A stretch of 64,000 nucleotides of DNA from an uncultured Chloroflexota bacterium (GCA_937974245.1 CALJKV010000064.1:23543-87542); one strand, 5' to 3'; positions 28,268-43,579 are shown, counted from the first letter of the stretch. A program made the numbers and translations. Notes: generated from the letters alone by a model not told the origin.

Positions 28268-28577
28268 GACTTGTCTCCGGTAGTGATTCTAAAAACGGGC
28301 GAATCATACCGCAAAAGATGGCAGATGTTAAGCGGGTAACGGAACATGCGTTACCCAACAGGTAAAGAGTGTCTGGCATGAACCGAGTTATGCAACCCCC
28401 AGGGTTTGGGGAATTTGAATACCACAGCAAATAAGCTAAGATAAGCGGGTAATACACACAACGCGAATTAATATGCAAATCATTCGCGGTTGGCGAACTT
28501 GAGCATCGTCTTTTAATCACAACCTAAGAGTTCGTTTCTGATTCTCCCTTGATTGCGCTAATTGAATTTTAGAGGAG

Positions 28578-29441
28578 ATGGGACATATGGAAACCCAGAT
28601 TATTGTCGCGCTGATCTCGTCCTGCCTCGGCGGTGTAATTGTGGCAGTCGTGAATCATCTGCTCACCCGCAGACACGGCGAGGTGGAAGTCCAGAAAATA
28701 ATAGCGGAAACCAAGCATATTGAGACAATTACGAAAAACATGCTTGAGGAGGCTGAGCGCATACGAGAAGAAAGTTCAAAGGAACTGGAAAAGGTGCATG
28801 ATGAGATTTCCCTGGCGACACAAACAATCAGCCAGGTGACTACCTTCAAGAATTATAAAGACGCCTTTGGAGAGATGACGCAGTTTATCATCAACTATCT
28901 GGAAACCTGTAAAAAGAACAACGAACACGCCCCAACCGTTGATCTAAAACTCATTGCCGTTGCAATGACATTTTCCTGGGAGCATTTTATCAGCACCGAT
29001 CTAATCGAAATTATCAATGATTATCCAGCGGCATCTTTTAACATCAGCATCGCATTCGTTCATCATCATTATCTGCGGGTGCGCAATGTTGGGTCCACAA
29101 CCGGTATCAACTGGCCGGACATCTGCGAAAAACGCCTGAAGGATGTGCAGGAGTTTGAGAGAGACTGCAAGGAATCCTTTGGTAACCGTGTGACGTTTGA
29201 CTACAAGACGTTTCATAACCTGCCACACTGGCACGGCTGGCTGGTCAACAATTCCCAACTTTACCTGGGACGCACAGACTGGACATTCGAAAATCACACA
29301 CACAAACTGAGGGTCGGCCAGAACCTGTATCGAAGCTTTGACGATACAAATGAACAGGGTGAACAGCGAATCGAGCTATTCAAGAGCTGGCACCGGTACT
29401 ATTTTGAATACGAACCGTCATTTGAGGAGTATGCCGGTTAG
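28578..29441 (+). CDS. membrane-anchored hypothetical protein (287 aa), ORFan-like
   Basis: N-terminal TM helix, a coiled-coil-like charged segment, then a His/Trp-rich C-terminal domain. Visibly lower GC than its neighbours, and has its own terminator. Confidence 0.55.
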   Translation: MGHMETQIIVALISSCLGGVIVAVVNHLLTRRHGEVEVQKIIAETKHIETITKNMLEEAERIREESSKELEKVHDEISLATQTISQVTTFKNYKDAFGEMTQFIINYLETCKKNNEHAPTVDLKLIAVAMTFSWEHFISTDLIEIINDYPAASFNISIAFVHHHYLRVRNVGSTTGINWPDICEKRLKDVQEFERDCKESFGNRVTFDYKTFHNLPHWHGWLVNNSQLYLGRTDWTFENHTHKLRVGQNLYRSFDDTNEQGEQRIELFKSWHRYYFEYEPSFEEYAG

Positions 29442-29474
29442 CAATTGGCGGATGTCCCAACGCGAAGCATTACC

Positions 29475-31469: not shown

Positions 31470-31685
31470 TCTGTCCACTTGCTTCCCGCCTGTCCCAGCA
31501 GTTACCCGCTGGATTTCCGGTTCGCTTTAGTTGTAGGAGGAATTGAGACCAGGGACGGTGGAAATGCCCCGGCGGCACCCGCTGATCTTTCGCTTTTCTC
31601 CCCGTGTCGGGGATTAGTCTCACCGTGAGGTGAGCAACCGCCACCGCGTCACCCTACACATAGAACATAGGGCCATGCGCTATCT
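31470..31685 (-). ncRNA. glmS ribozyme-like 5-prime leader
   Basis: The minus-strand leader reads AUAGCGCAUGG (cleavage-site-like A/GCGC), then a hairpin CCCUA...UAGGG. Next comes UGACGCGGUGGCGGUU (compare Bacillus UGACGAGGAUGGAGGUU), then GCGGGUGCCGCCGGGGC (compare GGCGGAUGCCUCCCGGC). GGCGG/CCGCC here replaces GGAGG/CCUCC, which is a compensatory change. The 3-prime boundary is approximate. Confidence 0.6.
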
Positions 31686-32119
31686 TTCCTCCGGTTGTGT
31701 GCGCGGCAGTTCTCCTTTATATAAATTGATATTAACGCCATTATAGATCGAAAAGATGCGTTTTGACCAGCCTGTTATGCGGGAATATAGTCGATTTCAG
31801 AAAGAATTTACGGATGTATCCATCTGGCATGGCTATCCGGGGTCGGGATTTTCGCTTGAGCGTTGAAAATGGCGTATCATATGAAGCATGGCAACGGGAA
31901 AGCCATAGGTCGAATTCCTGACCAGCATATCTGTGAATTTCACTCCCAGGGACCTGGCGCATCACCTGCAAGATGCGAGTCATGATTATGTTGTGGTCAC
32001 TGACTACGGGATGAGGACACGCAAGAAACTGACGGCACTGCATATTTGGGAACCATGACAAACTGTTTCCGCTCTGAAATTCATTTTCATTATTTCACAT
32101 ACGCTTATAGGGGGGAATT

Positions 32120-33679
32120 ATGCCAGAACCAGCCGCGATCCACGAGAAGCCCTTAGCAACACCACCGCCAGATCATAAACCGGAGACAATCCATATTTTG
32201 ATCACCCAATGCCTGCAAAACGCCTTTTTCCTGGCTGAAAAAGGCCGCTTGTGCTTACCGGAATTGACCGTTAAACAAATGCTCGTTGGTGCCAATTCCG
32301 ATACGGAAGATACATCCCCGGACCCGAATCGCCGCATCTATCCGAAAGACAAACTGCAAAAGGGTCCCTTGTATACATTTCTGGATACACTGATTAGCAA
32401 TGTTTCTAAGGATCGCGAACTATATGTGCTGCACTTACGGGATTGGCATACGCCCTCACCGCGCTATGATGCTGAACGGCGGCTCTATGGTGGACATTGT
32501 GAAGCGGGCACCTGGGAGGCCGAACCACTGGCCGGCTACGAAAAATTCCTGATGCCCTGGGGGAACGACAAAGACCAGGCACAGTTAGCACTATCCTTAA
32601 ATGGCTATCGCCAGACCAACGAAAATGGCGGAAAAATCATTTACTATGATGTACGTTCCGATTCGGTGTTTGATTTCAAGGAGCCGGTTGCTTCCGAACT
32701 TTACGAAGTCTATCAGAGGGCTTTGGCGCAGCGTAAGGAACAAGGGAACAGAGCGGCTAAAATTGATGTGGACGAACAGTGCGGCGATTATTATGCCGAT
32801 ACTTTTCTGGAAGCTATTCTGGATCAGGTGATTAAGGATAAACAACGGAAAAACAGACGCGCAGGCCGCGAAACTTTAGTCTATGTTACGGTGATTGGTG
32901 TTTATACCGACATTAAAATAAGGACGTTAATCAACGGCCTTCGCGCCCGTTATGAAACTGATGGGTTGTTGGTTTCCGATGTGTTGACCGCTTCACCGGA
33001 TATTGAGCGTTCGCTGGCGGCTTATGACTTTTTCGATAAGGTTCTGAACGTTGAAGTGGTTCACAGTCTGACGGAACTACTGCGCCCAATGTTGCCTAAT
33101 CAAGATGTGATGGTTGATGAAAGTATCATCAAGGGGCTGCCAAATTTCCGAGATTACAAGACCTTTTTCCTGGATAAACAGACGGTCCTGGCCTCGCAAG
33201 ATAACAAACTGCTGGATTACCTGGAATTGACCCAAAAACGCAGCAGTGAAGTCTATACGCAGATTTACAAAGCAAACTGGTGGTTATTATGGATGGGGCG
33301 TCTCTTTCTGTTTGTCGCATTGCTCCTGGTGATTCTTCAGGTGGGCGTGAAAGAAGTTGTGATACCAACCGAGGTTTGGGTGCTGACAGGCGGTTTGTCC
33401 ATTGCCCAATTGCTGACGAGTTTCTTTCTGATCCCCATGGCGCAAATGCGGAATAATGTCAATGCACTGGTACGGCTGCAAAACTACCTGGAAACCTACA
33501 GCACTATATCGTCGCTACTGCGCTTCCATATGACACGCGCCAATCAGTTGAATCCGCAGGATACTGCGCGGTCTACCGAGGAGTTGACCTTAGTCGAAAA
33601 GCAAATGACCATCATCCAAAACGCGGCTCAGAAAATGTCGGATACCTTTAGCGATATTCCGGTCAAAGATCCGAATTAA
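32120..33679 (+). CDS. isochorismatase/nicotinamidase-fold protein with two C-terminal TM helices (519 aa)
   Basis: By-eye alignment to PncA gives three matches: IHILITQCLQNAFF (compare LLLVDLQNDF), RDWHTPSP...GGHCEAGTWEAEPL (compare QDWHP...WPDHCV...GA) and VIGVYTDIKI (compare MGLATDYCV). The catalytic Asp and Cys positions appear to be Cys and Lys. TM helices lie at about residues 386-409 and 419-441. GGGGGA RBS. Confidence 0.6.
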   Translation: MPEPAAIHEKPLATPPPDHKPETIHILITQCLQNAFFLAEKGRLCLPELTVKQMLVGANSDTEDTSPDPNRRIYPKDKLQKGPLYTFLDTLISNVSKDRELYVLHLRDWHTPSPRYDAERRLYGGHCEAGTWEAEPLAGYEKFLMPWGNDKDQAQLALSLNGYRQTNENGGKIIYYDVRSDSVFDFKEPVASELYEVYQRALAQRKEQGNRAAKIDVDEQCGDYYADTFLEAILDQVIKDKQRKNRRAGRETLVYVTVIGVYTDIKIRTLINGLRARYETDGLLVSDVLTASPDIERSLAAYDFFDKVLNVEVVHSLTELLRPMLPNQDVMVDESIIKGLPNFRDYKTFFLDKQTVLASQDNKLLDYLELTQKRSSEVYTQIYKANWWLLWMGRLFLFVALLLVILQVGVKEVVIPTEVWVLTGGLSIAQLLTSFFLIPMAQMRNNVNALVRLQNYLETYSTISSLLRFHMTRANQLNPQDTARSTEELTLVEKQMTIIQNAAQKMSDTFSDIPVKDPN

Positions 33680-33744
33680 CCGATCAGATTGCTATAATCT
33701 GGCCTGAACTATGAGCAGGGAACACAGTGAGAGGGAAGCAGCCT

Positions 33745-34866
33745 ATGGCTAACTATCGTATCGTCGTTCGACGCGGCCCCCAACCGAATGCGACCTACGA
33801 TCTGGATCAGGACGTCATCACGCTGGGACGTGACATCACCAATGAAATCCTCATCAATGACGTAGAGGTTTCGCGCCACCACATGCGTTTTTCGCGCAGC
33901 CTCAACGGCTATATGGTGGAAGACCTGGGCAGCACCAACGGCACATTCATTAATGGGCGGCGGCTGACGGGCGCTCAGGAAATCCATTCGGGCGATATGA
34001 TCGGGTTGGGTGAGACGGTGACGTTGCAGGTGGAAGTTCTGGAATATGCTCGGCCAACCACGCCGGTGCGCCGGATGGCAGCGGATTCACCGGAACTTTC
34101 GCAGGAGACGCTTTCGGCGGATGCGATATCACAGGCAGGGTATACGCCTGCCCCCAGCATCCCTCCGGCAAGAGCCTCCGGGGAGGCGCTGCGTATCTTC
34201 ATCAGCTACCGGAAAACGAACCGGAACCGGGTGGATGCTATTGCCCAGGTGTTGCATGACATGGGGCATACTGTCACGTTTGATCAGGATATTCTTCAGG
34301 GGCAGCACTGGTGGAACGTGATTATTGAGCAGATTCACCAGGCCGACCTGATTATCGCCATGCTTTCCCCGGCGTATCTCCAGTCTGAGCCTTGCCACCT
34401 GGAATACACTTACGCAGCGGCGTTGAACAAGCGGGTGCTGCCGGTACAGATTGAACCGATCAATTACCGCCAGATGCCGGTGGAATTGCAGAAAATTCAG
34501 TTGGTGGATTTTAAGCAGCAGAACAATGGCGCGATTGACCGCCTCAGCACGGCCCTATCGATTCTGCCACCGGCCATGCCGCTGCCCGCTGTGATGCCGC
34601 GTGTGCCAGAAGCGCCTATCCCGGAGATCAGCAAACTCAAGGATGAGATTATCAACCTGACGATTCAGATCAGCGCTGACCGGCAGCGGTTGATTGCGAT
34701 GCGGCTTTACGAGATGATGCGCGGCCAGAACGCTGAAGATGCGACGATGGCGCGGGAACTGCTGGGGGCTATGCTCAAACGCCCGGACATTACATTTTCA
34801 ACCGGGCAGATGATCCAGGACTGGCTGAATGCCGGACGCCCCTGGTGGAAGCGCCTGGGTGGGTAA
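33745..34866 (+). CDS. FHA-TIR fusion protein
   Basis: N-terminal FHA domain (ITLGRD...VSRHHMRF...VEDLGSTNGTFINGRRL...GDMIGLG). Central TIR-like domain (RIFISYRKTN...GHTVTFDQD...ADLIIAMLSPAYLQSEPCHLEY). Start set to the ATG at 33745 with GAGGGAAG upstream. Lies 65 nt after the preceding gene. Confidence 0.8.
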   Translation: MANYRIVVRRGPQPNATYDLDQDVITLGRDITNEILINDVEVSRHHMRFSRSLNGYMVEDLGSTNGTFINGRRLTGAQEIHSGDMIGLGETVTLQVEVLEYARPTTPVRRMAADSPELSQETLSADAISQAGYTPAPSIPPARASGEALRIFISYRKTNRNRVDAIAQVLHDMGHTVTFDQDILQGQHWWNVIIEQIHQADLIIAMLSPAYLQSEPCHLEYTYAAALNKRVLPVQIEPINYRQMPVELQKIQLVDFKQQNNGAIDRLSTALSILPPAMPLPAVMPRVPEAPIPEISKLKDEIINLTIQISADRQRLIAMRLYEMMRGQNAEDATMARELLGAMLKRPDITFSTGQMIQDWLNAGRPWWKRLGG

Positions 34867-35200
34867 GGAAGTCGCCGCCGTATAAATGCTCCCGCCGCAG
34901 CGATCAATCTTCCGGCCAGGAAACCAGGGAAACAGTGGACATACTGAACAGGTGTGTTCAGTTAGTTATAGGCACTGGTTCTTCAATACCAGCACCGCGT
35001 CATATTCATCCGGCTCACTATCGAGTCGTGGCGTTGGCTAGGAGATTTTAAGAGATTGAGATAAAATACAATTCTAGATTATGCAATCTATTAGTATTTT
35101 CTTCGAAGGCATACTTCTTTTCCTTGTACGAAAAGTACGCAAGTTGAGTTGCGTAAGTCTTGATAGTATTCGTAAAAATTTATGAAAGGGAGATTATTTG

Positions 35201-35590
35201 ATGCCTACCTGTGATATTTGCGGCGCAGAAGTCACTTTGAAAGATTACTGCAAGATAGGAATTATGCCTAATCCGATCCAACCCAAAGGCTGGTTTCTAC
35301 TTGTAAGTAATGAATCTGGAGAGAGCGAAAAAGTATCCGATACAAAACCCGCTGCCACCGAGATTGCCAAAAAACTAGGTGAGATATTTTCTAGGCAGGC
35401 AAGTATACGTGAAAGTAAAACCGAGACAGGAGGTCCAGCAAACCTTCCAGGTATGTTTGTCTCCTTGCACGGAAAACTCTATTTCTGCCACGACTGCGTT
35501 GCAGCGAATGGGGGGAAAATAACAAAGACAGGTGTTGCTTTTGTTAAGGGGAAAGCGAAGAAAAAAGGCAAGTCATGGTGGCCTTTTTAG
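35201..35590 (+). CDS. small Cys-pair (zinc-ribbon-like) protein with a Lys-rich tail
   Basis: CDIC near the N-terminus and CHDC near residue 98, with a KGKAKKKGKSWW tail. AAAGGGAG RBS. Embedded in an AT-rich islet. Confidence 0.5.
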   Translation: MPTCDICGAEVTLKDYCKIGIMPNPIQPKGWFLLVSNESGESEKVSDTKPAATEIAKKLGEIFSRQASIRESKTETGGPANLPGMFVSLHGKLYFCHDCVAANGGKITKTGVAFVKGKAKKKGKSWWPF

Positions 35591-35823
35591 TTTGCAGAAT
35601 AGCTTGATCTATCTGCATCGGACTCATACCATTTTAAAGGTCTACTGATCGCTGTCGAGTAGCACATTTATTGTGTTCATTTTAGACGAGATGGTAACGA
35701 GTGAATTATATTAGAGGCGCTCACAACTGATAGTTTCATAGACTATCTGACAAATCAGGCCCTGGCTACAAGATGATTGGTCGAATATTTGCATTTCGCA
35801 ATGTTGATAATAGGATTCCCCCC

Positions 35824-36708
35824 ATGCAATCCATCCGAGTCGCGTTGATACAACTCTCCTGGTTAGGCAGCATCGCCGCCATGCAAGCAAAGTACTCCAC
35901 AATGGTCGCAGAGGCGGCAGAACGGGGCGCGGCGCTCGTCTGCCTGCCGGAACTCTCACTCAACCCGTATTTCCCTGGCACGCGGGACAAGAGCGGTTTC
36001 CAGTGGGCTGAACGGCTTCCGGGAGGTGTATCGGATCGTTTCTTCAGCCAACTGGCGCAGCAGCATGGCGTGACGCTCGTGGGCAGCCTCTTCGAGTGGG
36101 CGGCGGATGGTCACTATTACGACACGGCGACGGTTCACGGCCCGGATGGTCGCTTAATTGGGGCGACGCGCAAAGTGCATATCCCGTCCGGCGTAGGCTA
36201 CCATGAAACCGACTTCTTCGAGGGCTGGCACGAGTACCCGGTGCTGGATGCCGGAGCGCTGCGGCTGGCCGTACCCACCTGTTACGACCAATGGTTCCCC
36301 GAACTGGCGCGGATTTACGCCCTCAATGGTGCGGAGTTCATCTTCTACCCTACCGCTATCGGGAGTGAACCCAACGCCCCGGAAGTTGATTCTCAGCCCG
36401 CCTGGGAGACAGTCATGCGCGGCCACGCTATCGCCAACGCCGTGTTCATCGCGGCAGCCAACAGGGTAGGTGAGGAAAACGGTGTGCGCTTCTATGGCAG
36501 CAGTTTTGTCTGTGATCCCACCGGGAAAATCCTGGCACAGGCCGGGCGCGACACCACCGAAGTCATCACCGCCGACCTGGATGCGGCTGTATTCAACCAG
36601 TGGCGCGACCTGTTCCCGCTGCTGCACCAGCGTCGCCCGGCCACCTACGAGCGTATCGGGGAAACGTGGGACGGCGCACGCCCGGCGTGGCTGGGACATG
36701 GCGAATAA
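35824..36708 (+). CDS. aguB: carbon-nitrogen hydrolase, N-carbamoylputrescine amidase-like
   Basis: IRVALIQL..., LPEL (catalytic Glu region), RKVHIP, and CYDQWFPELAR...YPTAIGSEP (catalytic Cys context typical of CPA). Start set to the ATG at 35824. Confidence 0.8.
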   Translation: MQSIRVALIQLSWLGSIAAMQAKYSTMVAEAAERGAALVCLPELSLNPYFPGTRDKSGFQWAERLPGGVSDRFFSQLAQQHGVTLVGSLFEWAADGHYYDTATVHGPDGRLIGATRKVHIPSGVGYHETDFFEGWHEYPVLDAGALRLAVPTCYDQWFPELARIYALNGAEFIFYPTAIGSEPNAPEVDSQPAWETVMRGHAIANAVFIAAANRVGEENGVRFYGSSFVCDPTGKILAQAGRDTTEVITADLDAAVFNQWRDLFPLLHQRRPATYERIGETWDGARPAWLGHGE

Positions 36709-36811
36709 CCCGACCTGCTCACGCGGCCTGCCCTGGCCTGAATGCAATCCTGGTTTGAATAGGTTATAATTTCATCATAATTGTAGTTGAAGCAAGTGAC
36801 CAGGAGGCTCC

Positions 36812-37315
36812 ATGCCTGCGATATTGACGAATGACCGCTTTCGTATGGAAGTATCCGTCGCCGGGTACGAATTTCCTGATGAAGGCGCGGATATTTACGA
36901 TGCGAACTGGCTGCTGATCCGGGTGCGCTTAAAGCTGGTTTATGGCGCATGGACATGGCAGGTCGAGGATGCCGGGGCGCTCACCTGGGAATTGGCTGAT
37001 GCCGTGCGGTGGTTGCGGGCGCTGGCAGCGGATGAGCATGTCGAACAGGAATGGTGCGGGTTCTCCGAGCCGGACATCCGTTTTGAGACGATTCGGAATA
37101 CAGAAGGGGAACTGGTAGGGCTCACCATTCAGTTAATGGATGAATTCCAGCCGCCGACTAAAGTGTTGATGCCGCGAGAGAACAACATCGTCACGCTGCG
37201 TTTCCACACGCCGCCCGATGTGCTGTTGGCGCTGGCGGATCGACTGGAAAAACAGCTCGTGAAATTCCCGCAGCGCGGCGAACGCCCGGCAATATCCCAG
37301 GCACAGCACCCGTAA
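36812..37315 (+). CDS. hypothetical protein (167 aa)
   Basis: Clean ORF with AGGAGG upstream. The N-terminal pattern F.MEV..YEFP......YDANWLLIRV faintly recalls immunity-protein-like families, but I cannot assign it. Confidence 0.55.
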   Translation: MPAILTNDRFRMEVSVAGYEFPDEGADIYDANWLLIRVRLKLVYGAWTWQVEDAGALTWELADAVRWLRALAADEHVEQEWCGFSEPDIRFETIRNTEGELVGLTIQLMDEFQPPTKVLMPRENNIVTLRFHTPPDVLLALADRLEKQLVKFPQRGERPAISQAQHP

Positions 37316-37345
37316 TCCGTCGAATTCTGTACAAGGTAGAACGCT

Positions 37346-39706
37346 ATGCGCCTGGTGACCATCGCGCTCGGCTGGACGGCGGGCATTTTGCTGGCGGCGA
37401 ATTCCACCAACCGCCCCACATTGATCTGGTTCGGACTGGTGATTCTGGCAGGCACTGCCCTGTGGTTGGCGTGGCCGGATGTCCCCTGGCGGCGCGGGAC
37501 GCTGGCGCTGCTGGCTTTTACGCTGGGTGGCCTGCGCTTTTCGTTTGTCCCCGTGACCAGTGATATTGCCAACTATAACAACCTGGGCGGCCTGACAATT
37601 GAAGGTGTTGTTGCCGCTGAACCGGATACCCGCGATGATCGGATTCAATTCCAGCTTGCTGCTGAAATGATCACACGGGGTGGGCAGACCGTCCCAACAG
37701 ATGGCCTGGTGCTGGTGCAAGCGCCCCGCGTGACAGCGGTGCGCTATGGAGATCGGGTAACGGCCACGGGACTCCTGAGTCTCCCCGCTGAGTTTGATAC
37801 ATTTTCGTATGCCGACTACCTGGGGCGAAGCGGCGTCTTCAGCATCATGCGGAATGCGGCGGTGGAGACTGTCTCCGGCGGTCATGGCAATCCAATCACC
37901 ATGGCGCTGCTTGACCTGAAAACGCAGGCCGCCGGTTTGATCGCCCATAGTCTGCCGGAACCAGGGGCTGGACTGCTCACCGGCATTCTTCTGGGGGACG
38001 AAAGTGGTATCGCGCCGGAGGTGGCCGATTCCTTCAGCAAAGTGGGCGCGTCGCACATCATTGCCATCAGCGGGTTTAATATGGCGGTCGTCAGCGGCGT
38101 GCTGCTGGGTATGCTGGAACGCTTCCGCGCCTCGCGCCGATGGAGCGCGATCATTGCCGTGAGCGTGCTGGTCGCGTATACGCTGTTTGTGGGGGCGAAC
38201 GCCGCGGTGGTGCGAGCGGCCATTATGAGCAGTATGCTGGTGATCGGCAGCCTGCTACGCCGCAAGACCTATGTTCCGGCGTCGCTGGCCTTCGTCGCCA
38301 TCCTTATGTCGCTGCAAAACCCTACAGTCCTCTGGGACATCAGTTTTCAGTTGAGTTTTTTCGCTACCTTAGGGCTGGCGTTGTTTGTAGACCCGATTTC
38401 GCGTTGGTTTAATGGCCTGTTGGTGCGGGGGTTGGGTCGCGGCGCGGCGACCCGCGTGGGTGATTTTCTGGCTGAACCGCTGGTGGTTACATTGGCGGCT
38501 CAGGTAACAACCCTGCCGCTAATTGTGCTGTACTTCGGACGGCTGTCGCTGGTATCGCTGATCGTGAACCTGCTGGTCATCCCAGCACAGTCTTACTTAT
38601 TCATCTTGGGACTGTTGGCGACCCTTATCGCTTTTCTCGTGCCGCCGCTGGCGCAAATCCTGTACTGGATGACGCTGGTATTGCTGGCATGGACCATTGG
38701 CGTCGTGCGCCTTTTCGCTCAGATGCCTTTTGCTGATGTGGAATTTCATGTTGACCCGCGATTGATCGCGCTATTTTTTCTGATAATGATAGGAGGGGCG
38801 CTGATGCACGCCACGAAACCAACCAGGGCGCGGCGACTGGCCCGGATGCTGCGCCAGCGGGCTGTTGTGACAACGGCGGCGCTGGTATCGCTGGCAATCG
38901 CGCTGCTGATGGTGGTGGCAGCACTTAGCCGACCGGATGGTCAATTGCATGTCTGGTTGCTGGATATGGGACACAGTAACGCCGTGCTGGTACAGACCCC
39001 CGGTGGGGCGCATCTACTGATTGATGGCGGGCATTTTCCTTCGCGGTTGCTCACGGCGCTGGGTGACCGTCTGCCATTCAACGACCTGGAAATTGACGTG
39101 ATGGTTGTCACCCAGCCCGATGAGGCCGATTACGGCGCTCTCCCGGCGGTGCTGGCGCGCTACGATGTGGGCGTTGTGCTGACGAATGGGCAGCCGAATC
39201 TCAGCCCAGCGTTCCAGGAGTTGGAGGCAAAACTCGCCACTCGTGAGGTTGTGACGGTTCGTGCCGGGTATACGCTGGAAACCAGTGATGGCGTGCTGCT
39301 GGAAGTCCTGCATCCGCAGACGCAGCCCGAACTGGGGGACAGCCTAGATGATTCGGCACTGGTGCTGCGCTTGATATATGGGGATGTGTCGTTCCTCATC
39401 CCGGGCGATCTGAGCCGGGAGGGGCAGGCGGTGCTGCTCGAATCCGGGGAGTGGCCGCTGGCGACGGTCTTGCAGCTTCCCCGGCATGGCGCGGTTCGTT
39501 CATTGGATGAAGCCTTTCTCAGTGCAGTACAGCCGCAGGTCGTTGTGCTGCAAAATGACCCGGCTAACCGGCGCGGTGACCCGGACGGCGACACGCTCGC
39601 CCTGCTGGGGGATACGCTGCTGTTCCGTACCGACGATGAGCGTAACAGATCACACACATTGCATCTGTATACAGACGGCAGCGAACTGTGGGTGGTGAAC
39701 GAGTGA
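37346..39706 (+). CDS. comEC: DNA internalization-related competence protein ComEC/Rec2 (with C-terminal metallo-beta-lactamase domain)
   Basis: N-terminal OB-like region, a competence-domain polytopic membrane core (GASHIIAISGFNMAVV) and a C-terminal MBL-like domain (LLDMGHSNAVLVQTPGG...LIDGG). Confidence 0.85.
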   Translation: MRLVTIALGWTAGILLAANSTNRPTLIWFGLVILAGTALWLAWPDVPWRRGTLALLAFTLGGLRFSFVPVTSDIANYNNLGGLTIEGVVAAEPDTRDDRIQFQLAAEMITRGGQTVPTDGLVLVQAPRVTAVRYGDRVTATGLLSLPAEFDTFSYADYLGRSGVFSIMRNAAVETVSGGHGNPITMALLDLKTQAAGLIAHSLPEPGAGLLTGILLGDESGIAPEVADSFSKVGASHIIAISGFNMAVVSGVLLGMLERFRASRRWSAIIAVSVLVAYTLFVGANAAVVRAAIMSSMLVIGSLLRRKTYVPASLAFVAILMSLQNPTVLWDISFQLSFFATLGLALFVDPISRWFNGLLVRGLGRGAATRVGDFLAEPLVVTLAAQVTTLPLIVLYFGRLSLVSLIVNLLVIPAQSYLFILGLLATLIAFLVPPLAQILYWMTLVLLAWTIGVVRLFAQMPFADVEFHVDPRLIALFFLIMIGGALMHATKPTRARRLARMLRQRAVVTTAALVSLAIALLMVVAALSRPDGQLHVWLLDMGHSNAVLVQTPGGAHLLIDGGHFPSRLLTALGDRLPFNDLEIDVMVVTQPDEADYGALPAVLARYDVGVVLTNGQPNLSPAFQELEAKLATREVVTVRAGYTLETSDGVLLEVLHPQTQPELGDSLDDSALVLRLIYGDVSFLIPGDLSREGQAVLLESGEWPLATVLQLPRHGAVRSLDEAFLSAVQPQVVVLQNDPANRRGDPDGDTLALLGDTLLFRTDDERNRSHTLHLYTDGSELWVVNE

Positions 39707-40869
39707 CCCCACGATTGTTTATCGCTTCCGGCATTTTTCACCCGGAATCGGGCGGCCCGGCGACATATCTCTATGAACTGCTGCCGCAACTCCAACAGCG
39801 AGGCTGGGACATTCAGGCGCTCTCGTATGGTTCTGGCGTGGTGGATGCCTACCCGTACCCACTGCACCGCATCCCGCGCCGGGCGCTTCCGCTGCGCCAG
39901 CTGGATTATGCTATGGCTGCCCGCCCGCTGCTGGCGTGGGCTGATGTAGCATATATCCATACATTAGGGCTGCCGCTAATTGGTCGCCGGGCGCCACGTA
40001 TTCTCAAAATCGTCGGAGATCAGGCCTGGGAGCGTTCGGTGCGTAGAGGTTGGATAGCGCCCACTACTGACATTGACGCATTCCAGACGACCCGCTATGG
40101 TCTGATTGTCAGCACCCAGCAGTCCGCCCGTTCCCGTGAAGTGCGTGGCATGGATGGTGTGGTGGTCCCTAGTGCATACCTCAAGCAGATGGTGGTGGGG
40201 TGGGGCGTTGCGCCGGAAAAAGTGCATGTCATCTATAATGCGCTACCACCGGAAGAGAGAGCGAGAGATTCAAACCCCTTATCCGCAACTACTCAATCTA
40301 CTATTTCGCAGGCTGCTGCCCGCGCCGAATTTGGGTTGGGCGATACGCCTCTACTGCTGACAGCTGCCCGACTGACTCACTGGAAAGGTATCAACCACTT
40401 GATTACCGCTCTCTCACGGCTGCCGGATGCCCATCTGCTGGTGGCGGGGGATGGCGAGATGCGCCCGGCGCTTGAAGCCCAGGCGGGGCGGTTGGGCGTA
40501 GCAGAGAGAGTGACATTCCTGGGGCGTGTGCCGCGTGACCGGATGCCGCTCTATATGAAAGCCGCCGATTACCTGACACTGTATTCCGGCTACGAAGGGT
40601 TATCCCACACATTGCTAGAAAGTCTGCGGGCGGGGACTCCGGTCATCGCCAGCGATAAGGGCGGTAATCCCGAAGTGGTACAACACGGCGTCAACGGCTT
40701 GCTCGTGCCGTATGTGGATGTAGACGCGCTGACCGAGGTACTGCGGGAGGCATTCCAGCCGGGTAAACGGGCGGCACTGGCGGCCAACACCGAGGTGGGT
40801 ATGGAACGTTTCGATTTTGCCACTATGGTCGCGCAGGTGGACGCGCTGCTGCAGGGGTACTTAGCCTGA
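39703..40869 (+). CDS. glycosyltransferase family 4 (GT-B)
   Basis: PESGGPATY near the N-terminus and a C-terminal EGLSHTLLESLRAGTPVIASDKGGNPEVV motif (E-x7-E type). The start is ambiguous: GTG at 39703 overlaps the comEC stop as GTGA, and GTG at 39688 is the alternative. Confidence 0.8.
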   Translation: MTPRLFIASGIFHPESGGPATYLYELLPQLQQRGWDIQALSYGSGVVDAYPYPLHRIPRRALPLRQLDYAMAARPLLAWADVAYIHTLGLPLIGRRAPRILKIVGDQAWERSVRRGWIAPTTDIDAFQTTRYGLIVSTQQSARSREVRGMDGVVVPSAYLKQMVVGWGVAPEKVHVIYNALPPEERARDSNPLSATTQSTISQAAARAEFGLGDTPLLLTAARLTHWKGINHLITALSRLPDAHLLVAGDGEMRPALEAQAGRLGVAERVTFLGRVPRDRMPLYMKAADYLTLYSGYEGLSHTLLESLRAGTPVIASDKGGNPEVVQHGVNGLLVPYVDVDALTEVLREAFQPGKRAALAANTEVGMERFDFATMVAQVDALLQGYLA

Positions 40870-42969
40870 TAGATCGCCGGGTCTCAGTCTTAACAGGAAC
40901 GGGTCATCGGGGTGCGGGTCAGCGTCAGGCACTTCCTGTACTTCGCCGGTGGTGGTGTTATCCGGGAGGTTTTCGTAGAGCGGTTGCGCCCCGGTGACTG
41001 CGACAGAGCGGCTTTGCCCGGTGGCGTGGATATAGGTATGTACCTGAATCGCGTGGTTGGCGTCAATATCAAAGGTAACATCCACCAGTTGTTTGCCAGG
41101 CGCATCTGGCGGAATGCCATCTACCACGAATTGACCTAGCGACGTATTGCCGCTTACGGTTTGCGATTCACCCTGGAGCACATGCAGGCGGGCGTGAGTC
41201 TGCTGATTCGCCATCGTGGTAAACACTTGCGTGCTCCGAAATGGAATGGTGGTGTTTTTCTCCAGAATGACGGCGATTTTGCCTTCAGCGGTTTCTATGC
41301 CCAGGCCATGCCCCATACCATCTAGCAACAGTATGTCTTTGAGCTGACCTTCCAGCACGGCGGCCTGGCGCGCCGCGCCCTGCGCTACAACGGTATCGGG
41401 GTCTACATCGCGCAGCGGCGTTTTCTTGAAGAATGCTGTCACTTTTTCGGTAACTCTGGGGGTGCGGGTTGCCAGGCCGACCAGCGCCAGATGAGTGATT
41501 CGATCAACTGACATTGTCCCTGATATAGAGGAAATGTATAGGGCGTCCTGGCAGCAGGCAATCGTCCTTTCGGTCAGGTGCGCGGTGAGTTCATCAAACT
41601 TCTCTCGTGTGAGTGGGACGCTCAGATGATAGGCACTGCTGCCATCCCCCGCGATAAACGGTACGTCTACACTGGTATGTTTCGCGGTTGAGAGTACTAT
41701 CTTGGCACGTTCGGCGGCCTCTCGCAGCCGCATCTGTGCCACCAGGTCGCCGCTCAGGTCTACGCCGGTCTGTGCATAGAACTCGGCGATACAGTAGTTG
41801 ACGATGGCCTCATCGTAGTCTAGTCCGCCCAGTTGGGTATCCCCGTTAACCGAGCGTACTTCATATACGCCATCTCCGATTTCCAGGATCGAAATATCGA
41901 ATGTGCCGCCGCCTAGATCGTAAACCGCGACCATGCCTTCTTTGATGCCGTAGCCAAAGCAGGCCGCCGTCGGTTCCGCCACGATCCTCAGTACTTCCAA
42001 CCCGGCCAGTTCGGCGGCCTTTGCCAGCACGTCATGCTGTGCTTCGTCAAAATAGGCAGGAGCAGTGAGTACGACGCCACTTACGGTCTCTCCCAGGTAG
42101 GCTTCAGCGTCATCCTTAAGGCTCTTGATGATGTAGGAAGCCAGGAGTGCCGGGTCATATAACTTGCCATCAACCGGCAGTGCTACGTCATAGCCAAACA
42201 GGCGCTTGACTTGCAGCACGCACCGTTCCGGGTATTGCAGCGCGAACTTCATGGCAGCTTCGCCCACCAGGATAGACCCATCCAGGCCGATGCCAACGGC
42301 GGAAGGAGTAGATGGATAACCGAGGCGGTTGTGGATCACAATTGGTTCGCCCTTTTCAAAAACGGCGCATAATGAATTCGTCGTGCCGAAATCCACACCA
42401 AAAAATCTCCCGGATGCCTGAGGAGTGACGTGCTGGTTACGAAGAACAGTCCGCCGCCGCTGTCTCCCGCCAGAGAGCGTTTTCATATAGCTGGCGGCCA
42501 AAGTCTTGCGGTGTTCCGTCCAGGCCATCTGTGCCGGCAGCCCATTGGGATTGGCCGGGGCGGCGTAGGCGTGAGATATCGGAATTAATACCGCGATAGC
42601 GTTCAGGCCGCGCTTGAGCCTGTCTTTTACAGCAGGAGTTGGTCCCCAACTGAAATCGGCGTACTGGTAACGGCTGATGTTATCAGGAATCTGCGTTTCT
42701 CGATCCAGCAGCACTGGAATAATCGGCTTGCTGGCCGTAATCGCCTCGGCAAATTCCCACTGGCACCACTCGGATGCCACTGACTTCGGGGAAAGGGCGT
42801 ACACAAAGGCATCGCACCCGCGTATCTCCTTGAGCAGGATGGCCTTCCAATCCTGGCCGGGGAGCAGTTCCATATCAAACCAGGGCACATGCTGCTCCGA
42901 GCGAAAAATATCAGCCAGAATGTCGATTTTATCGAGGTCGGCATGGGCGTAGCTAATGAAGAGTTTCAT
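40861..42969 (-). CDS. TIR domain - Hsp70 (DnaK-like) fusion protein (702 aa)
   Basis: Residues 1-110 are TIR-like: KLFISYAHAD...GCDAFVYALSPKSVASEWCQWEF...IIPVLL. From about residue 188 there is an Hsp70 nucleotide-binding domain: GVDFGTTNS, VLTAPAYFD, DLGGGTFDISIL, DTQLGG. A beta-sandwich SBD-like part follows: LGIETAEG...TIP...VLQGE...G.F...GIPP...VTFDIDAN. Confidence 0.8.
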   Translation of the reverse strand: MKLFISYAHADLDKIDILADIFRSEQHVPWFDMELLPGQDWKAILLKEIRGCDAFVYALSPKSVASEWCQWEFAEAITASKPIIPVLLDRETQIPDNISRYQYADFSWGPTPAVKDRLKRGLNAIAVLIPISHAYAAPANPNGLPAQMAWTEHRKTLAASYMKTLSGGRQRRRTVLRNQHVTPQASGRFFGVDFGTTNSLCAVFEKGEPIVIHNRLGYPSTPSAVGIGLDGSILVGEAAMKFALQYPERCVLQVKRLFGYDVALPVDGKLYDPALLASYIIKSLKDDAEAYLGETVSGVVLTAPAYFDEAQHDVLAKAAELAGLEVLRIVAEPTAACFGYGIKEGMVAVYDLGGGTFDISILEIGDGVYEVRSVNGDTQLGGLDYDEAIVNYCIAEFYAQTGVDLSGDLVAQMRLREAAERAKIVLSTAKHTSVDVPFIAGDGSSAYHLSVPLTREKFDELTAHLTERTIACCQDALYISSISGTMSVDRITHLALVGLATRTPRVTEKVTAFFKKTPLRDVDPDTVVAQGAARQAAVLEGQLKDILLLDGMGHGLGIETAEGKIAVILEKNTTIPFRSTQVFTTMANQQTHARLHVLQGESQTVSGNTSLGQFVVDGIPPDAPGKQLVDVTFDIDANHAIQVHTYIHATGQSRSVAVTGAQPLYENLPDNTTTGEVQEVPDADPHPDDPFLLRLRPGDLSG

Positions 42970-43029
42970 AACCCACTGTACGCTATTTTCCAGCGATTTT
43001 TACACTATAACGATTCCCATGGGTTTTGT

Positions 43030-43530
43030 CTACCAGCCTTGCGTACCGGGTTCGCCCTTGAACGGGCCAACAATCTCCGATGTGATCCACCCGCCATAGA
43101 AGTTCCCGGCCTGGGGCTGCACCCGCTCATCATCCAGATAACAGGCCTCGACCCGCCCCGGATAAAACGCCACGTAATCTTTGATGGCTTCATATCCGGG
43201 TGATGGGTTGGCATACGTCCAGGCGACATTGGCTGACTTCTGCCCGTTGACCCTCAGTGACCAGTAGTGGGCGACGCCCTTGAACTCGCAATAGCTGGTG
43301 TGTTGGGTGCGGTCCAGCCATTCTATACGAATGTCTTCTGACGGGATGTAATACGCCGGAGGATGGCTGGTTTCCAATATCCGAACGGCGTGGGTTGTTT
43401 CAGCCACAATCTCGCCATTGAAGATGACACGCACACGTCGGGTGGATGGTTCGATTCGCGGTGGGCGCGGGTAATCCCAGACGGATTCCTGGCCGGAGCC
43501 AGGTTGGATGGATCGTATGTTCCAAGACAT
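43030..43530 (-). CDS. DUF427 domain protein
   Basis: FNGEIVAETTHAVRILETSHPPAYYIP...YCEFKGVAHYW...VAFYP matches the DUF427 pattern. Confidence 0.75.
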   Translation of the reverse strand: MSWNIRSIQPGSGQESVWDYPRPPRIEPSTRRVRVIFNGEIVAETTHAVRILETSHPPAYYIPSEDIRIEWLDRTQHTSYCEFKGVAHYWSLRVNGQKSANVAWTYANPSPGYEAIKDYVAFYPGRVEACYLDDERVQPQAGNFYGGWITSEIVGPFKGEPGTQGW

Positions 43531-43579
43531 AGCTAAACCTCATACACTTCAAAAAATGGCAGCTATTGGTCTTTCACGC

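What the first reader, a model, noticed from the sequence alone, without database searches (positions are those of the whole stretch)
32120..34866. Candidate two-gene TIR module: nicotinamidase-fold protein with 2 TM helices followed by an FHA-TIR fusion
Seen in the sequence:
- Two same-strand genes lie 65 nt apart, flanked by AT-rich non-coding DNA on both sides (31740-32119 and 34867-35200).
- Gene 1 is collinear by eye with PncA/isochorismatase-fold enzymes. The matching blocks are ILITQCLQNAFF, RDWHTPSP..GGHCEAGTWEAEPL and VIGVYTDIKI.
- The positions that align with the catalytic Asp and catalytic Cys read Cys and Lys.
- Gene 1 ends in two strongly hydrophobic helices (residues about 386-441) plus a coiled tail.
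- Gene 2 has an N-terminal FHA (phosphothreonine-reader) domain and a TIR domain. The TIR domain retains the Glu context (SEPCHLEY) that corresponds to the NADase catalytic Glu in other TIRs.

Established knowledge:
- Bacterial TIR domains are NAD+ glycohydrolases/cyclases that release nicotinamide and make ADPR-derived second messengers.
- In Thoeris, a TIR protein (ThsB) signals to a ligand-sensing effector (ThsA). In type II Thoeris, that effector carries TM helices.

Inference:
- This pair has the same logic, with a TIR producer and a small-molecule-binding fold fused to a membrane effector.
- The sensor fold (a nicotinamidase fold that probably no longer hydrolyses) and the FHA gate on the TIR are, to my knowledge, not part of described Thoeris types.
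- FHA gating would tie activation to Ser/Thr kinase signalling, for example the STK-STAND protein at 15503.
Basis: partly seen in the sequence, partly recalled or inferred. Interest (0 to 1): 0.8.

Follow-up and report, generated by a model that had tools for sequence, protein, structure and literature searches.

The report
Nicotinamidase-like membrane protein beside FHA-TIR
Two real neighbouring genes, a membrane-anchored nicotinamidase-like protein with a rewired active site and an FHA-TIR protein, are paired only in this one species, so they are not a conserved Thoeris-like module; elsewhere, though, the first gene's family repeatedly sits next to another NAD-cleaving enzyme type, SIR2.

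Summary
Every sequence observation holds.

- **Gene 1** (32120-33679, 519 aa) folds as a PncA/isochorismatase domain. The metal triad D108/H110/H126 is kept. The catalytic Asp and Cys positions read C31 and K266, both essentially invariant in the family. A two-helix membrane hairpin and conserved C-terminal helices follow.
- **Gene 2** (33745-34866, 373 aa) is FHA - linker - TIR_2 - helical domain, with the candidate catalytic Glu at E220.

- The pair occurs only in conspecific genomes (94-100% identity).
- Gene 1 orthologs at 77% identity have unrelated downstream genes.
- FHA-TIR orthologs at 81%, 66% and about 30% identity have no gene 1.
- A sister genome carries the TIR gene at the same glmS-proximal site without gene 1.
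- The block sits between strain-variable cassettes.

Gene 1 belongs to a small, undescribed family (380 representatives in 1.84 billion). In 18 of 60 non-redundant loci it lies beside a defence-type SIR2_2 NADase, usually with an nSTAND1 (WD40 where checked) protein, in at least five gene orders. Soluble relatives are fused to TCAD9 kinase-like and phosphatase domains.

Best reading: a facultative juxtaposition of two NAD-centred conflict genes. Gene 1 probably handles a pyridine product of NADases. That mechanism is inferred, not shown.

The parts
32120..33679 (+). Gene 1: 519-aa member of an uncharacterised PncA-like, membrane-hairpin protein family
   Evidence: ORF. At least 142 homologs found, E <= 0.001. 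380 representatives in 1.84 billion proteins. AF2 pLDDT 84.6. GC 0.48 against 0.55 for the window.
32183..33082 (+). Cytoplasmic nicotinamidase/isochorismatase-fold domain (residues about 22-321). Key residues: C31 (32210-32212), D108, H110, H126 (32441-32497), K266 (32915-32917).
   Evidence: Foldseek top hits are nicotinamidases 3o93, 5zn8 and 1ilw. hhalign mapping to PncA. Invariance across the family. Distant relatives with the same signature hit Pfam PF00857.
33275..33439 (+). Two hydrophobic helices forming a membrane hairpin (residues about 386-440), joined by a loop of about 6 residues
   Evidence: Kyte-Doolittle 19-residue peaks of 2.45 and 1.65. They lie within long helices 349-409 and 417-471 of the model.
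33440..33676 (+). Conserved juxtamembrane and C-terminal helices (motif NxxxLVRLxNYLETYS; E458, S461 and R468 invariant) and a helical tail
   Evidence: Alignment A1 and residue counts. Helix 482-511.
33680..33744 (+). 65-nt spacer. Contains TGcTATAAT (33690-33698, an extended -10-like motif) and a GAGGGAAG ribosome-binding site. No terminator-like hairpin.
   Evidence: Sequence read directly. The terminator scan found none in the spacer. The -10 motif was not called by the promoter scan because it lacks a -35.
33745..34866 (+). Gene 2: 373-aa FHA - linker - TIR_2 - helical C-terminal domain protein
   Evidence: Pfam. P0121 is 100% identical. AF2 model.
33745..34044 (+). FHA domain (residues 1-100). 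Carries the canonical FHA phosphothreonine-binding motifs (assigned by eye from general knowledge): G28-R29, S43/H46, N65-G66.
   Evidence: Pfam FHA 7.5e-18. Foldseek OdhI/GarA, TM 0.86-0.93 on the target, rmsd about 1 A. 54-72% identical to the FHA domains of the roughly 215-300-aa FHA-only proteins that make up 112 of the 120 listed hits, mostly Chloroflexi where named.
34189..34560 (+). TIR_2 domain (residues about 149-272). Candidate catalytic Glu E220 at 34402-34404.
   Evidence: Pfam TIR_2 9.8e-24. Alignment A5. Only weak ThsB/TIR hits in PADLOC.
34627..34863 (+). Helical C-terminal domain (residues about 295-373), shared with the FHA-less paralog P0125
   Evidence: 79% identity over residues 149-362 with P0125. 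Helices in the AF2 model.
34936..34960 (+). Terminator-like hairpin about 70 nt after the gene 2 stop codon
   Evidence: Consensus scan only; the number of such sites found is no higher than in shuffled sequence.
31770..32183 (.). Left variable junction. Synteny with relatives stops here. Conspecifics L152 and L153 and the 77% ortholog locus L068 carry a PIN gene plus a 75-aa ORF (no Pfam hit; read here as its antitoxin) at this position.
   Evidence: blastn block boundaries. Gene lists.
34875..35819 (.). Right variable junction. Holds a 130-aa ORF in this window, and a remnant of the 75-aa antitoxin-like ORF on the - strand at 34871-35034.
   Evidence: blastn and tblastn. The 130-aa ORF has no family hit.

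Best explanation
The locus holds two genuine genes of NAD+-centred conflict systems. They have been brought together in a strain-variable spot upstream of glmS. They are not an obligate, co-inherited sensor-effector pair.

**Gene 2.** It is a self-contained FHA-TIR protein.
- The FHA domain is closely related to the FHA domains of the short FHA-only proteins common in Chloroflexi, which suggests recent capture. It should dock the protein onto a phosphothreonine ligand.
- The TIR domain has its catalytic Glu and should cleave NAD+.

**Gene 1.** It belongs to a small, undescribed family.
- A cytoplasmic PncA-like domain keeps the metal site that in nicotinamidases coordinates the pyridine nitrogen.
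- The Asp and Cys of the catalytic triad are replaced by an invariant Cys and an invariant Lys.
- The domain is fused to a membrane hairpin and conserved helices.
- Elsewhere the family is recurrently linked to SIR2_2 NADases, usually with nSTAND1 sensors. Its soluble relatives are fused to TCAD9 kinase-like domains.

**Proposed mechanism for the family.** The PncA-like pocket binds, and possibly transforms, a pyridine product of NADase action: nicotinamide, nicotinate or a nucleotide carrying one. This controls the membrane module. NADase activation would thereby be converted into a membrane-level response. In this genome the adjacent FHA-TIR could supply that product, as a facultative partner.

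**Shown:** the folds, motifs, residue conservation, lack of conserved pairing, SIR2 linkage and variable flanks.
**Inferred:** ligand identity, membrane action, and any coupling between gene 1 and gene 2.
For: **Folds and motifs:**

**The pair is confined to conspecifics.**
- L001, L152 and L153 carry gene 1 at 96-98% identity, followed by FHA-TIR.

**Each gene occurs without the other.**
- L068 and L069 (77% gene 1 orthologs) lack a TIR neighbour.
- L065, L063, L150 and L151 carry FHA-TIR without gene 1.
- The sister MAG locus L066 has glmS followed directly by a TIR paralog. DNA homology to the window resumes only at 34192, inside gene 2.

**Variable flanks and composition.**
- Variable cassettes flank the gene 1-gene 2 block.
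- GC is 0.48 for gene 1 and 0.56-0.59 for gene 2.

**SIR2 linkage of the family.**
- SIR2_2 occurs in 7 of 103 downstream neighbours by Pfam.
- 18 of 60 non-redundant loci carry SIR2-like genes and 14 carry nSTAND.
- Gene orders seen: SIR2-nSTAND-gene 1 with a 4-nt overlap (L088), convergent (L015, L021, L038), gene 1-SIR2-nSTAND with a 4-nt gap (L017), SIR2-gene 1 (L104), and divergent (L111).
- The SIR2 genes are confirmed as SIR2_2 and resemble ThsA, Dsr and PDC-S25.
- Other neighbours include CBASS-type patatin, DpdF, BrxH and mad1.

**Soluble relatives.** Isochorismatase-TCAD9-phosphatase or kinase fusions carry the same C...K signature.
Against: - About half of the loci with good flanks show no NADase neighbour.
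- The most conserved operon of the family, in Streptomyces plus L050, contains a lipoprotein-like protein and a coiled-coil membrane protein but no NADase.
- In Anaerolineae the recurrent neighbour is NurA plus a 208-aa unknown protein.
- In the strict subset with at least 9 kb on both sides, SIR2 proximity is only weakly significant: 6 hits near against 1 far, p = 0.125.
- SIR2-linked members cluster mostly in one Actinomycetota-type clade of the family tree, so part of the signal is shared ancestry.
- Nothing shows that the pocket binds nicotinamide or that the hairpin perturbs membranes.
- The tight 65-nt same-strand spacing with no terminator between the genes would equally fit a true operon.
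Confidence: 0.45

Rival explanations
1. This is a Thoeris-like two-gene system. FHA-TIR, once released by a phosphothreonine signal, makes an ADPR-derived second messenger. The PncA-like domain of gene 1 senses that messenger and its TM hairpin kills the cell.
For: - The genes are on the same strand, 65 nt apart, with no terminator-like hairpin between them and one after gene 2.
- A TIR with its catalytic Glu lies next to a small-molecule-binding fold fused to TM helices. This is formally like type II Thoeris.
- Many new Thoeris effectors are TM proteins.
- The pair is retained in at least three conspecific assemblies.
Against: - The pairing is not conserved beyond 94-98% identity. Both genes occur alone in the nearest relatives, even at the same chromosomal site.
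- TIR is not an enriched neighbour of the family: 1 adjacent locus among 60.
- PADLOC gives gene 2 only weak hits to ThsB/TIR-type models and gives gene 1 none.
- Stand-alone TIRs are usually treated as NAD+ depleters rather than signal producers.
- TIR genes are dense here, two in 64 kb, so a chance adjacency is plausible.
Confidence: 0.15
2. Gene 1 is an accessory enzyme rather than a sensor. It would be a membrane-tethered amidase with a permuted active site (C31, metal, K266) that destroys nicotinamide or a related pyridine amide. This would relieve product inhibition of SIR2/TIR NADases and deny phages the nicotinamide they need to rebuild NAD+.
For: - About 20 polar pocket residues are invariant, including the full metal triad, a Cys and a Lys. 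That degree of conservation is typical of catalysis.
- Nicotinamide inhibits the bacterial sirtuin CobB, and a nicotinamidase deletion behaved similarly to the cobB deletion (PMC5734772).
- Phage NARP1 rebuilds NAD+ from ADPR and nicotinamide and overcomes Thoeris, DSR1, DSR2, SIR2-HerA and SEFIR (bioRxiv 10.1101/2024.02.11.579819).
- The family is linked to SIR2 genes.
Against: - The canonical nucleophile Cys is replaced by Lys and the general base Asp by Cys. No precedent for this arrangement was found.
- A soluble scavenging enzyme needs neither a conserved TM hairpin nor conserved juxtamembrane helices.
- The Streptomyces operon contains no NADase.
Confidence: 0.2
3. Pure coincidence. Gene 1 is a membrane protein with a role unrelated to NADases, for example in an envelope-associated complex as in the Streptomyces operon. 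Its SIR2 and TIR neighbours merely reflect residence in variable, defence-rich genome regions.
For: - Roughly half of the loci have no NADase neighbour.
- There is a conserved Streptomyces operon with a lipoprotein-like and a multi-TM coiled-coil protein.
- The flanks here are hypervariable.
- SIR2 linkage is concentrated in one clade of the family tree, and the distance test is weak.
Against: - SIR2 adjacency survives at least five rearrangements. These include overlapping or 4-nt-spaced same-strand junctions in two phyla (L088, L017, L012, L146).
- A fold whose only well-characterised close structural matches act on nicotinamide, the NADase product, is a specific coincidence.
- Sister-clade fusions to TCAD9 place the domain in conflict systems.
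Confidence: 0.2

Closest known systems
Type II Thoeris (TIR ThsB plus Macro-domain/TM effector) and the expanded Thoeris types V-XI
   Same: A TIR gene lies next to a gene that fuses a small-molecule-binding fold to TM helices, and the TIR keeps its catalytic Glu. Many predicted Thoeris effectors are TM proteins.
   Different: - The binding fold is PncA-like, not Macro, SLOG or another described effector domain.
- PADLOC has no model matching gene 1.
- The 29-type survey does not mention isochorismatase, nicotinamidase or FHA in its text or supplements.
- TIR-effector co-occurrence, the defining feature, was tested and not met.
Nicotinamidase/pyrazinamidase PncA (isochorismatase superfamily, PF00857)
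   Same: The same fold, with the best Foldseek hits. The motifs are collinear: xQN(D/A)F after strand 1, DWH...HC metal site, and GxxTDxx(C/K).
   Different: - The catalytic Asp is Cys and the catalytic Cys is Lys, and there is no mappable catalytic Lys.
- There are large insertions, a C-terminal TM hairpin and helices.
- Gene 1 itself falls below every Pfam and NCBIfam threshold.
SIR2 plus STAND NTPase conflict/defence modules (nSTAND1-WD40 systems; Avs5-type SIR2-STAND)
   Same: Gene 1 homologs abut SIR2_2 plus nSTAND1 gene pairs in 14 to 18 of 60 loci, sometimes with overlapping stop and start codons. WD40 repeats were confirmed in the three nSTAND1 proteins scanned. The SIR2 proteins resemble the ThsA, Dsr and PDC-S25 NADases.
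   Different: - The window has no SIR2 or nSTAND1 gene near gene 1.
- No PncA-like third component was found in the literature searched.
Isochorismatase-TCAD9 (Pfam 'ternary complex associated domain 9') proteins, some with DSP phosphatase or Ser/Thr kinase domains
   Same: They share the same divergent PncA-like domain with the LITQCLQNxF, IRDWH, GxHC and GV(Y/W)T(D/E)xK signature.
   Different: They are soluble. The domain is fused to kinase-like or phosphatase modules instead of a TM hairpin. The genome-derived examples are from Myxococcota.
OdhI/GarA/FhaB-type bacterial FHA proteins
   Same: The gene 2 FHA domain superposes at about 1 A rmsd with 32-37% identity, and it has all the canonical phosphothreonine-binding residues by eye.
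   Different: Here the FHA domain is fused to a TIR domain. That architecture was found only in a handful of Chloroflexi-type sequences.

Membership tests
Thoeris (TIR signalling defence system) | A TIR-domain (ThsB-like) gene with the catalytic Glu | tested here: met
   Pfam TIR_2 9.8e-24. E220 sits in the S-x2-Y-x2-S-x2-C-x2-E motif. PADLOC gives only weak ThsB hits, 5e-6 to 2e-4.
Thoeris (TIR signalling defence system) | An adjacent effector gene that recurrently co-occurs with the TIR gene across genomes | tested here: not met
   The pair occurs only in conspecifics. Gene 1 orthologs at 77% identity and FHA-TIR orthologs at 81%, 66% and about 30% identity lack the partner. A TIR is adjacent in 1 of 60 non-redundant loci.
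Thoeris (TIR signalling defence system) | The effector carries a known signal-binding domain (SLOG, Macro or another described type) | tested here: not met
   Gene 1 has no PADLOC, Pfam or NCBIfam hit. The fold is PncA-like. It is not among the effectors named in the 2025 survey.
Thoeris (TIR signalling defence system) | Production of an ADPR-derived signal and protection from phage | not testable with these tools
   Needs expression, LC-MS of lysates and plaque assays.
Isochorismatase/nicotinamidase superfamily (PF00857; PncA) | Three-layer alpha/beta isochorismatase fold | tested here: met
   AF2 pLDDT 84.6. Foldseek nicotinamidase hits at E 5e-7 to 1e-5, TM on the target 0.65-0.78.
Isochorismatase/nicotinamidase superfamily (PF00857; PncA) | Sequence match to the family profile above threshold | tested here: inconclusive
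   Gene 1 itself has no hit. Distant relatives with the same signature hit PF00857: L055 at 41 bits against a cut-off of 27, and 20 of 22 fusion proteins with a best E-value of 2e-11.
Isochorismatase/nicotinamidase superfamily (PF00857; PncA) | Asp-Lys-Cys catalytic triad | tested here: not met
   D8 maps to C31 and C138 to K266. Both are essentially invariant. The Lys position cannot be mapped, and residue 177 is D, E or H.
Isochorismatase/nicotinamidase superfamily (PF00857; PncA) | Asp/His/His metal site of nicotinamidases | tested here: met
They are kept in 85-86 of 87 members. Metal binding itself was not tested.
FHA phosphothreonine-binding domains | FHA fold with the conserved Arg, Ser, His and Asn of the phosphothreonine pocket | tested here: met
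   Pfam 7.5e-18. Foldseek OdhI/GarA at rmsd about 1 A. R29, S43, H46 and N65 are read from the sequence.
SIR2 / nSTAND1-WD40 conflict modules with a PncA-like third gene (proposed here, not a described system) | SIR2_2 and nSTAND1 genes adjacent to the PncA-like membrane gene | tested here: not met
   True for 14 to 18 of 60 family loci. The window has no SIR2-like ORF, and no nSTAND1 hit from the window appeared among the ORFs searched. Its neighbour is a TIR instead.

The most novel reading that the evidence does not exclude
PncA-like membrane-hairpin proteins are a new class of 'product-sensing' effectors. Their rewired, metal-containing nicotinamidase pocket would detect the nicotinamide-type leaving group released when any NADase fires, whether SIR2_2 with nSTAND1 or, here, a phosphothreonine-gated FHA-TIR. 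The pocket would then trigger a membrane hairpin. NAD+ cleavage would thus be coupled to membrane collapse without a dedicated cyclic-ADPR messenger. In this reading, the window shows the TIR-partnered version of a system that elsewhere uses SIR2.
Probability: 0.15. Interest if true: 0.8.

Novelty: new variant of a known kind. Interest (0 to 1): 0.5.

Why it matters
**If the family-level link holds.** The PncA-like membrane protein would be an undescribed component of NAD+-depleting immunity in filamentous and multicellular bacteria (Anaerolineae, Gaiellales-type Actinomycetota, Streptomyces, and Myxococcota for the soluble relatives). It would give a testable handle on a neglected question: what cells do with the nicotinamide half of cleaved NAD+. 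The options are sensing it, destroying it, or denying it to phage NAD+-rebuilding pathways.

**The permuted active site.** Cys at the Asp position and Lys at the Cys position, with the metal site kept, is a clean enzymological puzzle in a well-studied fold.

**The specific claim.** The result is sobering. The gene 1 plus FHA-TIR pair is a single-lineage arrangement in a variable hotspot. It should not be catalogued as a new Thoeris type without experiments.

**The FHA-TIR fusion.** It is rare, and it would tie a TIR NADase to Ser/Thr-kinase signalling.

Tried and rejected
- **Direct profile searches of gene 1.** Pfam, NCBIfam and PADLOC returned nothing. PDB sequence and profile searches gave only noise.
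- **hhalign to PncA.** In global mode it failed. Local mode gave a collinear but low-probability alignment. I use it only together with the fold match and the motif invariance.
- **TIR search near gene 1 homologs.** I searched with single-sequence phmmer and with a locally built 8-sequence TIR HMM. This found only L001, L061 (three TIR genes 3.8-6.5 kb away), L098 (5.4 kb away) and a weak hit in L017. The local HMM may miss very divergent TIRs. The Pfam census of 216 immediate neighbours did not list TIR among the 25 most frequent families, but that list was cut at 6 members downstream and 2 upstream, so it is a weak check.
- **L063 upstream ORF.** I considered that the cut ORF upstream of the FHA-TIR gene might be a gene 1 fragment. 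It is not.
- **P0126 and P0015.** I considered that they shared a contig because the lengths are similar (9840 and 9841). L150 has no gene 1-like sequence.
- **Streptomyces operon partners.** The 330-aa and 510-aa proteins have no Pfam, PADLOC or PDB match. I read them only as lipoprotein-like and coiled-coil/multi-TM from the sequence. They could not be folded because structure jobs are restricted.
- **Low GC of gene 1 as evidence of recent transfer.** I rejected this as a specific argument. Homologs are 2-7 points below their loci in every genome checked.
- **Literature searches.** I found no description of a nicotinamidase-like or isochorismatase-like partner of TIR, SIR2 or STAND systems. 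De Souza and Aravind 2012 on NAD-utilising systems is not held, so prior mention there cannot be excluded.

Full report
**1. What is in the sequence**

Two + strand ORFs occupy 32120-33679 (519 aa) and 33745-34866 (373 aa).
- An alternative GTG start at 33727 is not used by the orthologs.
- The 65-nt spacer and both Shine-Dalgarno-like sites were read directly.
- The flanks are AT-rich (GC 0.36-0.48) against about 0.60 in neighbouring genes.
- The window matches an Anaerolineaceae MAG (JACKCG010000004.1; gene 1 is 98% identical).

**2. Gene 1**

No Pfam, NCBIfam or PADLOC model matches, and no PDB sequence matches.

*Fold.* With a 44-sequence alignment (A1) AlphaFold2 gives a confident model (pLDDT 84.6, pTM 0.77).
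- Residues about 22-321 form an alpha/beta domain.
- Helices follow at 349-409, 417-471 and 482-511.
- Foldseek against the PDB returns nicotinamidases first. Hits include S. pneumoniae 3o93 (E 5e-7), B. subtilis 5zn8/6a8l (TM 0.73-0.78 on the target) and P. horikoshii 1ilw. Other isochorismatase-fold hydrolases follow.

Together with the strand and motif pattern, it maps:
- the catalytic Asp to C31;
- the metal ligands D49, H51 and H71 to D108, H110 and H126;
- the catalytic Cys to K266.

Across 87 non-redundant family members, C31 is kept in 81, K266 in 87, and D108, H110 and H126 in 85-86. About fifteen further polar residues are also invariant. The catalytic-Lys position cannot be mapped reliably.

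The site is rewired rather than decayed.

*Membrane segment.* Hydropathy confirms two hydrophobic segments, centred on 394-410 (peak 2.45) and on 428-430 (1.65). They are joined by a loop of about 6 residues. With no N-terminal hydrophobic segment, both the PncA-like domain and the conserved C-terminal helices (NYLETYS motif; E458, S461 and R468 invariant) should be cytoplasmic. That topology is an inference.

**3. Gene 2**

- Pfam finds FHA (residues 25-89, 7.5e-18) and TIR_2 (151-267, 9.8e-24).
- The AF2 model shows a confident FHA domain, a disordered linker at 101-146, a TIR domain and a helical C-terminal domain.
- The FHA part superposes on OdhI/GarA at about 1 A rmsd.
- The canonical FHA residues R29, S43, H46 and N65, and the TIR motif ending in E220, are present.
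- Full-length FHA-TIR relatives are few: P0121-P0124 at 66-100% identity and P0126-P0128 at about 30%.
- The FHA domain alone is 54-72% identical to the FHA-only proteins of about 215-300 aa that make up most of the listed hits, mostly Chloroflexi where named. That suggests a recently captured domain.

**4. Is the pair a module?**

*Conspecific assemblies keep the pair.* L001, L152 and L153 carry gene 1 at 96-98% identity, followed by FHA-TIR.

*Beyond that level it dissolves.*
- Gene 1 orthologs at 77% identity are followed by a lipoprotein-like gene (L068, which is also next to glmS) or a rhodanese-like gene by eye (L069).
- FHA-TIR orthologs at 81% (L065), 66% (L063, L064) and about 30% (L150, L151) have unrelated neighbours and no gene 1-like sequence.

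*The sister MAG is the most telling case.*
- In L066 (JACKCH), glmS is followed directly by a TIR paralog, P0125. It has no FHA domain and is 79% identical over the TIR and C-terminal domains.
- DNA homology with the window runs through glmS to 31765. It resumes only at 34192, inside gene 2.
- So gene 1 plus the FHA-coding part form an indel relative to that genome.

*The block sits between variable cassettes.* Between conspecifics, the gene 1-gene 2 block is bounded by variable segments at 31770-32183 and 34875-35819.
- The left segment holds a PIN gene plus a 75-aa antitoxin-like ORF in L152, L153 and L068.
- The right segment holds a remnant of that 75-aa ORF in the window.

*Composition.* GC differs by about 9 points between gene 1 (0.48) and gene 2 (0.56-0.59). 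However, gene 1 homologs are low in GC everywhere checked.

*Transcription signals.* The spacer holds a TGcTATAAT motif and no terminator-like hairpin. Co-transcription and independent transcription are both possible.

**5. What accompanies the gene 1 family elsewhere**

The genome scan gave 57 loci and the metagenome scan 80. After dereplication at 90% identity there are 97 loci, 60 of them with at least 6 kb of flank.

| Neighbour within the flanks | Loci (of 60) |
|---|---|
| SIR2-like | 18 |
| nSTAND1 | 14 |
| TIR (adjacent only in L001) | 4 |
| NurA plus 208-aa unknown | 4 |
| Streptomyces-type operon partners | 3-4 (17 loci before dereplication) |

*The SIR2 neighbours.*
- They are Pfam SIR2_2.
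- They resemble the ThsA, Dsr and PDC-S25 NADases.
- Their usual partner is an nSTAND1 protein of about 1200 aa; the three scanned by Pfam also carry WD40 repeats.

*Linkage persists through different gene orders.*
- SIR2-nSTAND-gene 1 on one strand, with a 4-nt overlap in L088.
- Convergent: L015, L020, L021, L038, L045, L097, L098.
- Gene 1-SIR2-nSTAND: L017 (4-nt gap), L146, and L012 in Chloroflexota.
- SIR2-gene 1: L104.
- Divergent: L111.

*Caveats.*
- SIR2-linked members are concentrated in one Actinomycetota-type clade of an NJ tree.
- The near-versus-far distance test on 26 fully flanked loci is weak, at 6 against 1, p = 0.125.
- The Streptomyces operon has a lipoprotein-like and a coiled-coil multi-TM protein but no NADase.

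*Other defence-type neighbours.* These include CBASS-type patatin, DpdF, BrxH and mad1.

**6. Wider family**

An exhaustive profile search finds only 380 representatives (E <= 0.001) in 1.84 billion proteins. Below the full-length family lies a soluble sister clade that keeps the LITQCLQNDF, IRDWH, GxHC and GVWTEAKV signature. Within it:
- 20 of 22 members hit Pfam Isochorismatase;
- 18 of 22 carry TCAD9, a kinase-like 'ternary complex associated domain';
- 8 of 22 carry a DSP phosphatase;
- one locus (L055) fuses the domain to a Ser/Thr kinase.

This ties gene 1 to the isochorismatase superfamily by transitive sequence evidence. It also places the domain in conflict-system architectures.

**7. 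Literature**

- The searches found no nicotinamidase-like or isochorismatase-like partner of TIR, SIR2 or STAND systems.
- The 2025 survey that defines 29 putative Thoeris types does not mention isochorismatase, nicotinamidase or FHA in its text or supplements. It explicitly sets aside stand-alone TIRs.
- Two background facts bear on mechanism. Nicotinamide inhibits bacterial sirtuins, and a nicotinamidase deletion behaved similarly to the cobB deletion (PMC5734772). Phages rebuild NAD+ from ADPR and nicotinamide.

**8. Interpretation**

*Shown.*
- The domain calls are correct.
- The pairing is a single-lineage arrangement in a variable hotspot.
- The gene 1 family is small and undescribed.
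- The family is recurrently, though not universally, linked to SIR2-type NADases.

*Inferred.* The retained metal site and invariant pocket bind a pyridine product of NAD+ cleavage and control, or are anchored by, the membrane module. In this genome the FHA-TIR could be a facultative source of that product.

*Rivals.*
- A true Thoeris-like signal-effector pair. The lack of conservation argues against it.
- A nicotinamide-destroying accessory enzyme. Pocket invariance favours it; the lost nucleophile and the conserved hairpin argue against it.
- Coincidence, with an unrelated envelope function. The Streptomyces operon favours it.

*Verdict.*
- Novelty is at the level of a new variant within NADase-centred conflict systems.
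- The kinase-FHA link to the gene at 15503 is untested.

Noticed in passing
window 31471-31692 (-): A glmS ribozyme-like element lies upstream of glmS (RF00234, full-length model match, 33.6 bits, just under the gathering score of 37, E 2.6e-5). It accounts for the 370 nt conserved at 86% with the sister MAG and marks where synteny ends.
   Followed up: partly
window 40861-42969 (-); indel 40861-43581: An ORF fuses an N-terminal TIR_2 domain to an Hsp70/DnaK-like ATPase (TIR_2 3e-22, HSP70 4e-137). The 2.7-kb segment that carries it is absent from the conspecific assembly L001, so it is strain-variable.
   Followed up: partly
window 31770-32183 and 34871-35034 (-); L152 6226-6892; L068 1363-2029: A PIN gene plus a 75-aa ORF (no Pfam hit; read as its antitoxin) sits between glmS and gene 1 in close relatives but not in the window. 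A remnant of the 75-aa ORF lies just downstream of gene 2 on the opposite strand.
   Followed up: partly
window 28343-29473: The segment just past the glmS stop codon differs between conspecific assemblies: a 287-aa ORF with no family hit here, against 156-aa and 258-aa ORFs in L152. This is the position used by Tn7-like elements in other bacteria (from general knowledge). I did not examine it further.
   Followed up: no
window 35773-39706 and 15503-18811: Downstream genes are a CN_hydrolase, a WapI-like immunity protein (PF24716, 2e-21) and ComEC. A Ser/Thr kinase - AAA_16 - TPR STAND-like protein lies about 13 kb upstream of gene 1.
   Followed up: partly
L058 9604-13398; L061 9648-17548; also L007, L054: In several Anaerolineae the gene 1 homolog is followed by NurA, a conserved 208-aa protein with no family hit and, in L058 and L061, a HerA-like ATPase. 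In L061 three TIR_2 genes, an acetyltransferase and an AP-endonuclease-fold gene sit between the 208-aa gene and the HerA-like gene.
   Followed up: partly
L028-L050 (for example L031 6559-11392; L028 2-3962): Streptomyces (violaceusniger-group species) and one Actinomycetota MAG share a tight three-gene operon. It comprises a lipoprotein-like protein of about 330 aa, a coiled-coil protein of about 510 aa with 3-4 TM segments, and the gene 1 homolog. The first two have no Pfam, PADLOC or PDB match.
   Followed up: partly
L055 8369-10645; L056 9845-11815; L057 5593-7803; P0322-P0369: A soluble sister clade has the same Cys/Lys-rewired isochorismatase-like domain fused to TCAD9 kinase-like domains. 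Members often also carry DSP-type phosphatases, or a Ser/Thr kinase in L055.
   Followed up: partly
P0317 (188 aa), P0330 (197 aa): Short proteins that start with Met consist only of the TM hairpin plus the conserved C-terminal helices of the family. They may be stand-alone versions of the membrane module or miscalled fragments.
   Followed up: no
L053 3710-4627; A2 census: Other immediate neighbours of gene 1 homologs include a CBASS-type patatin phospholipase effector (PADLOC 6e-64) and DpdF-, BrxH-, PsyrT- and mad1-like proteins. This suggests defence-island-like surroundings in several lineages.
   Followed up: partly
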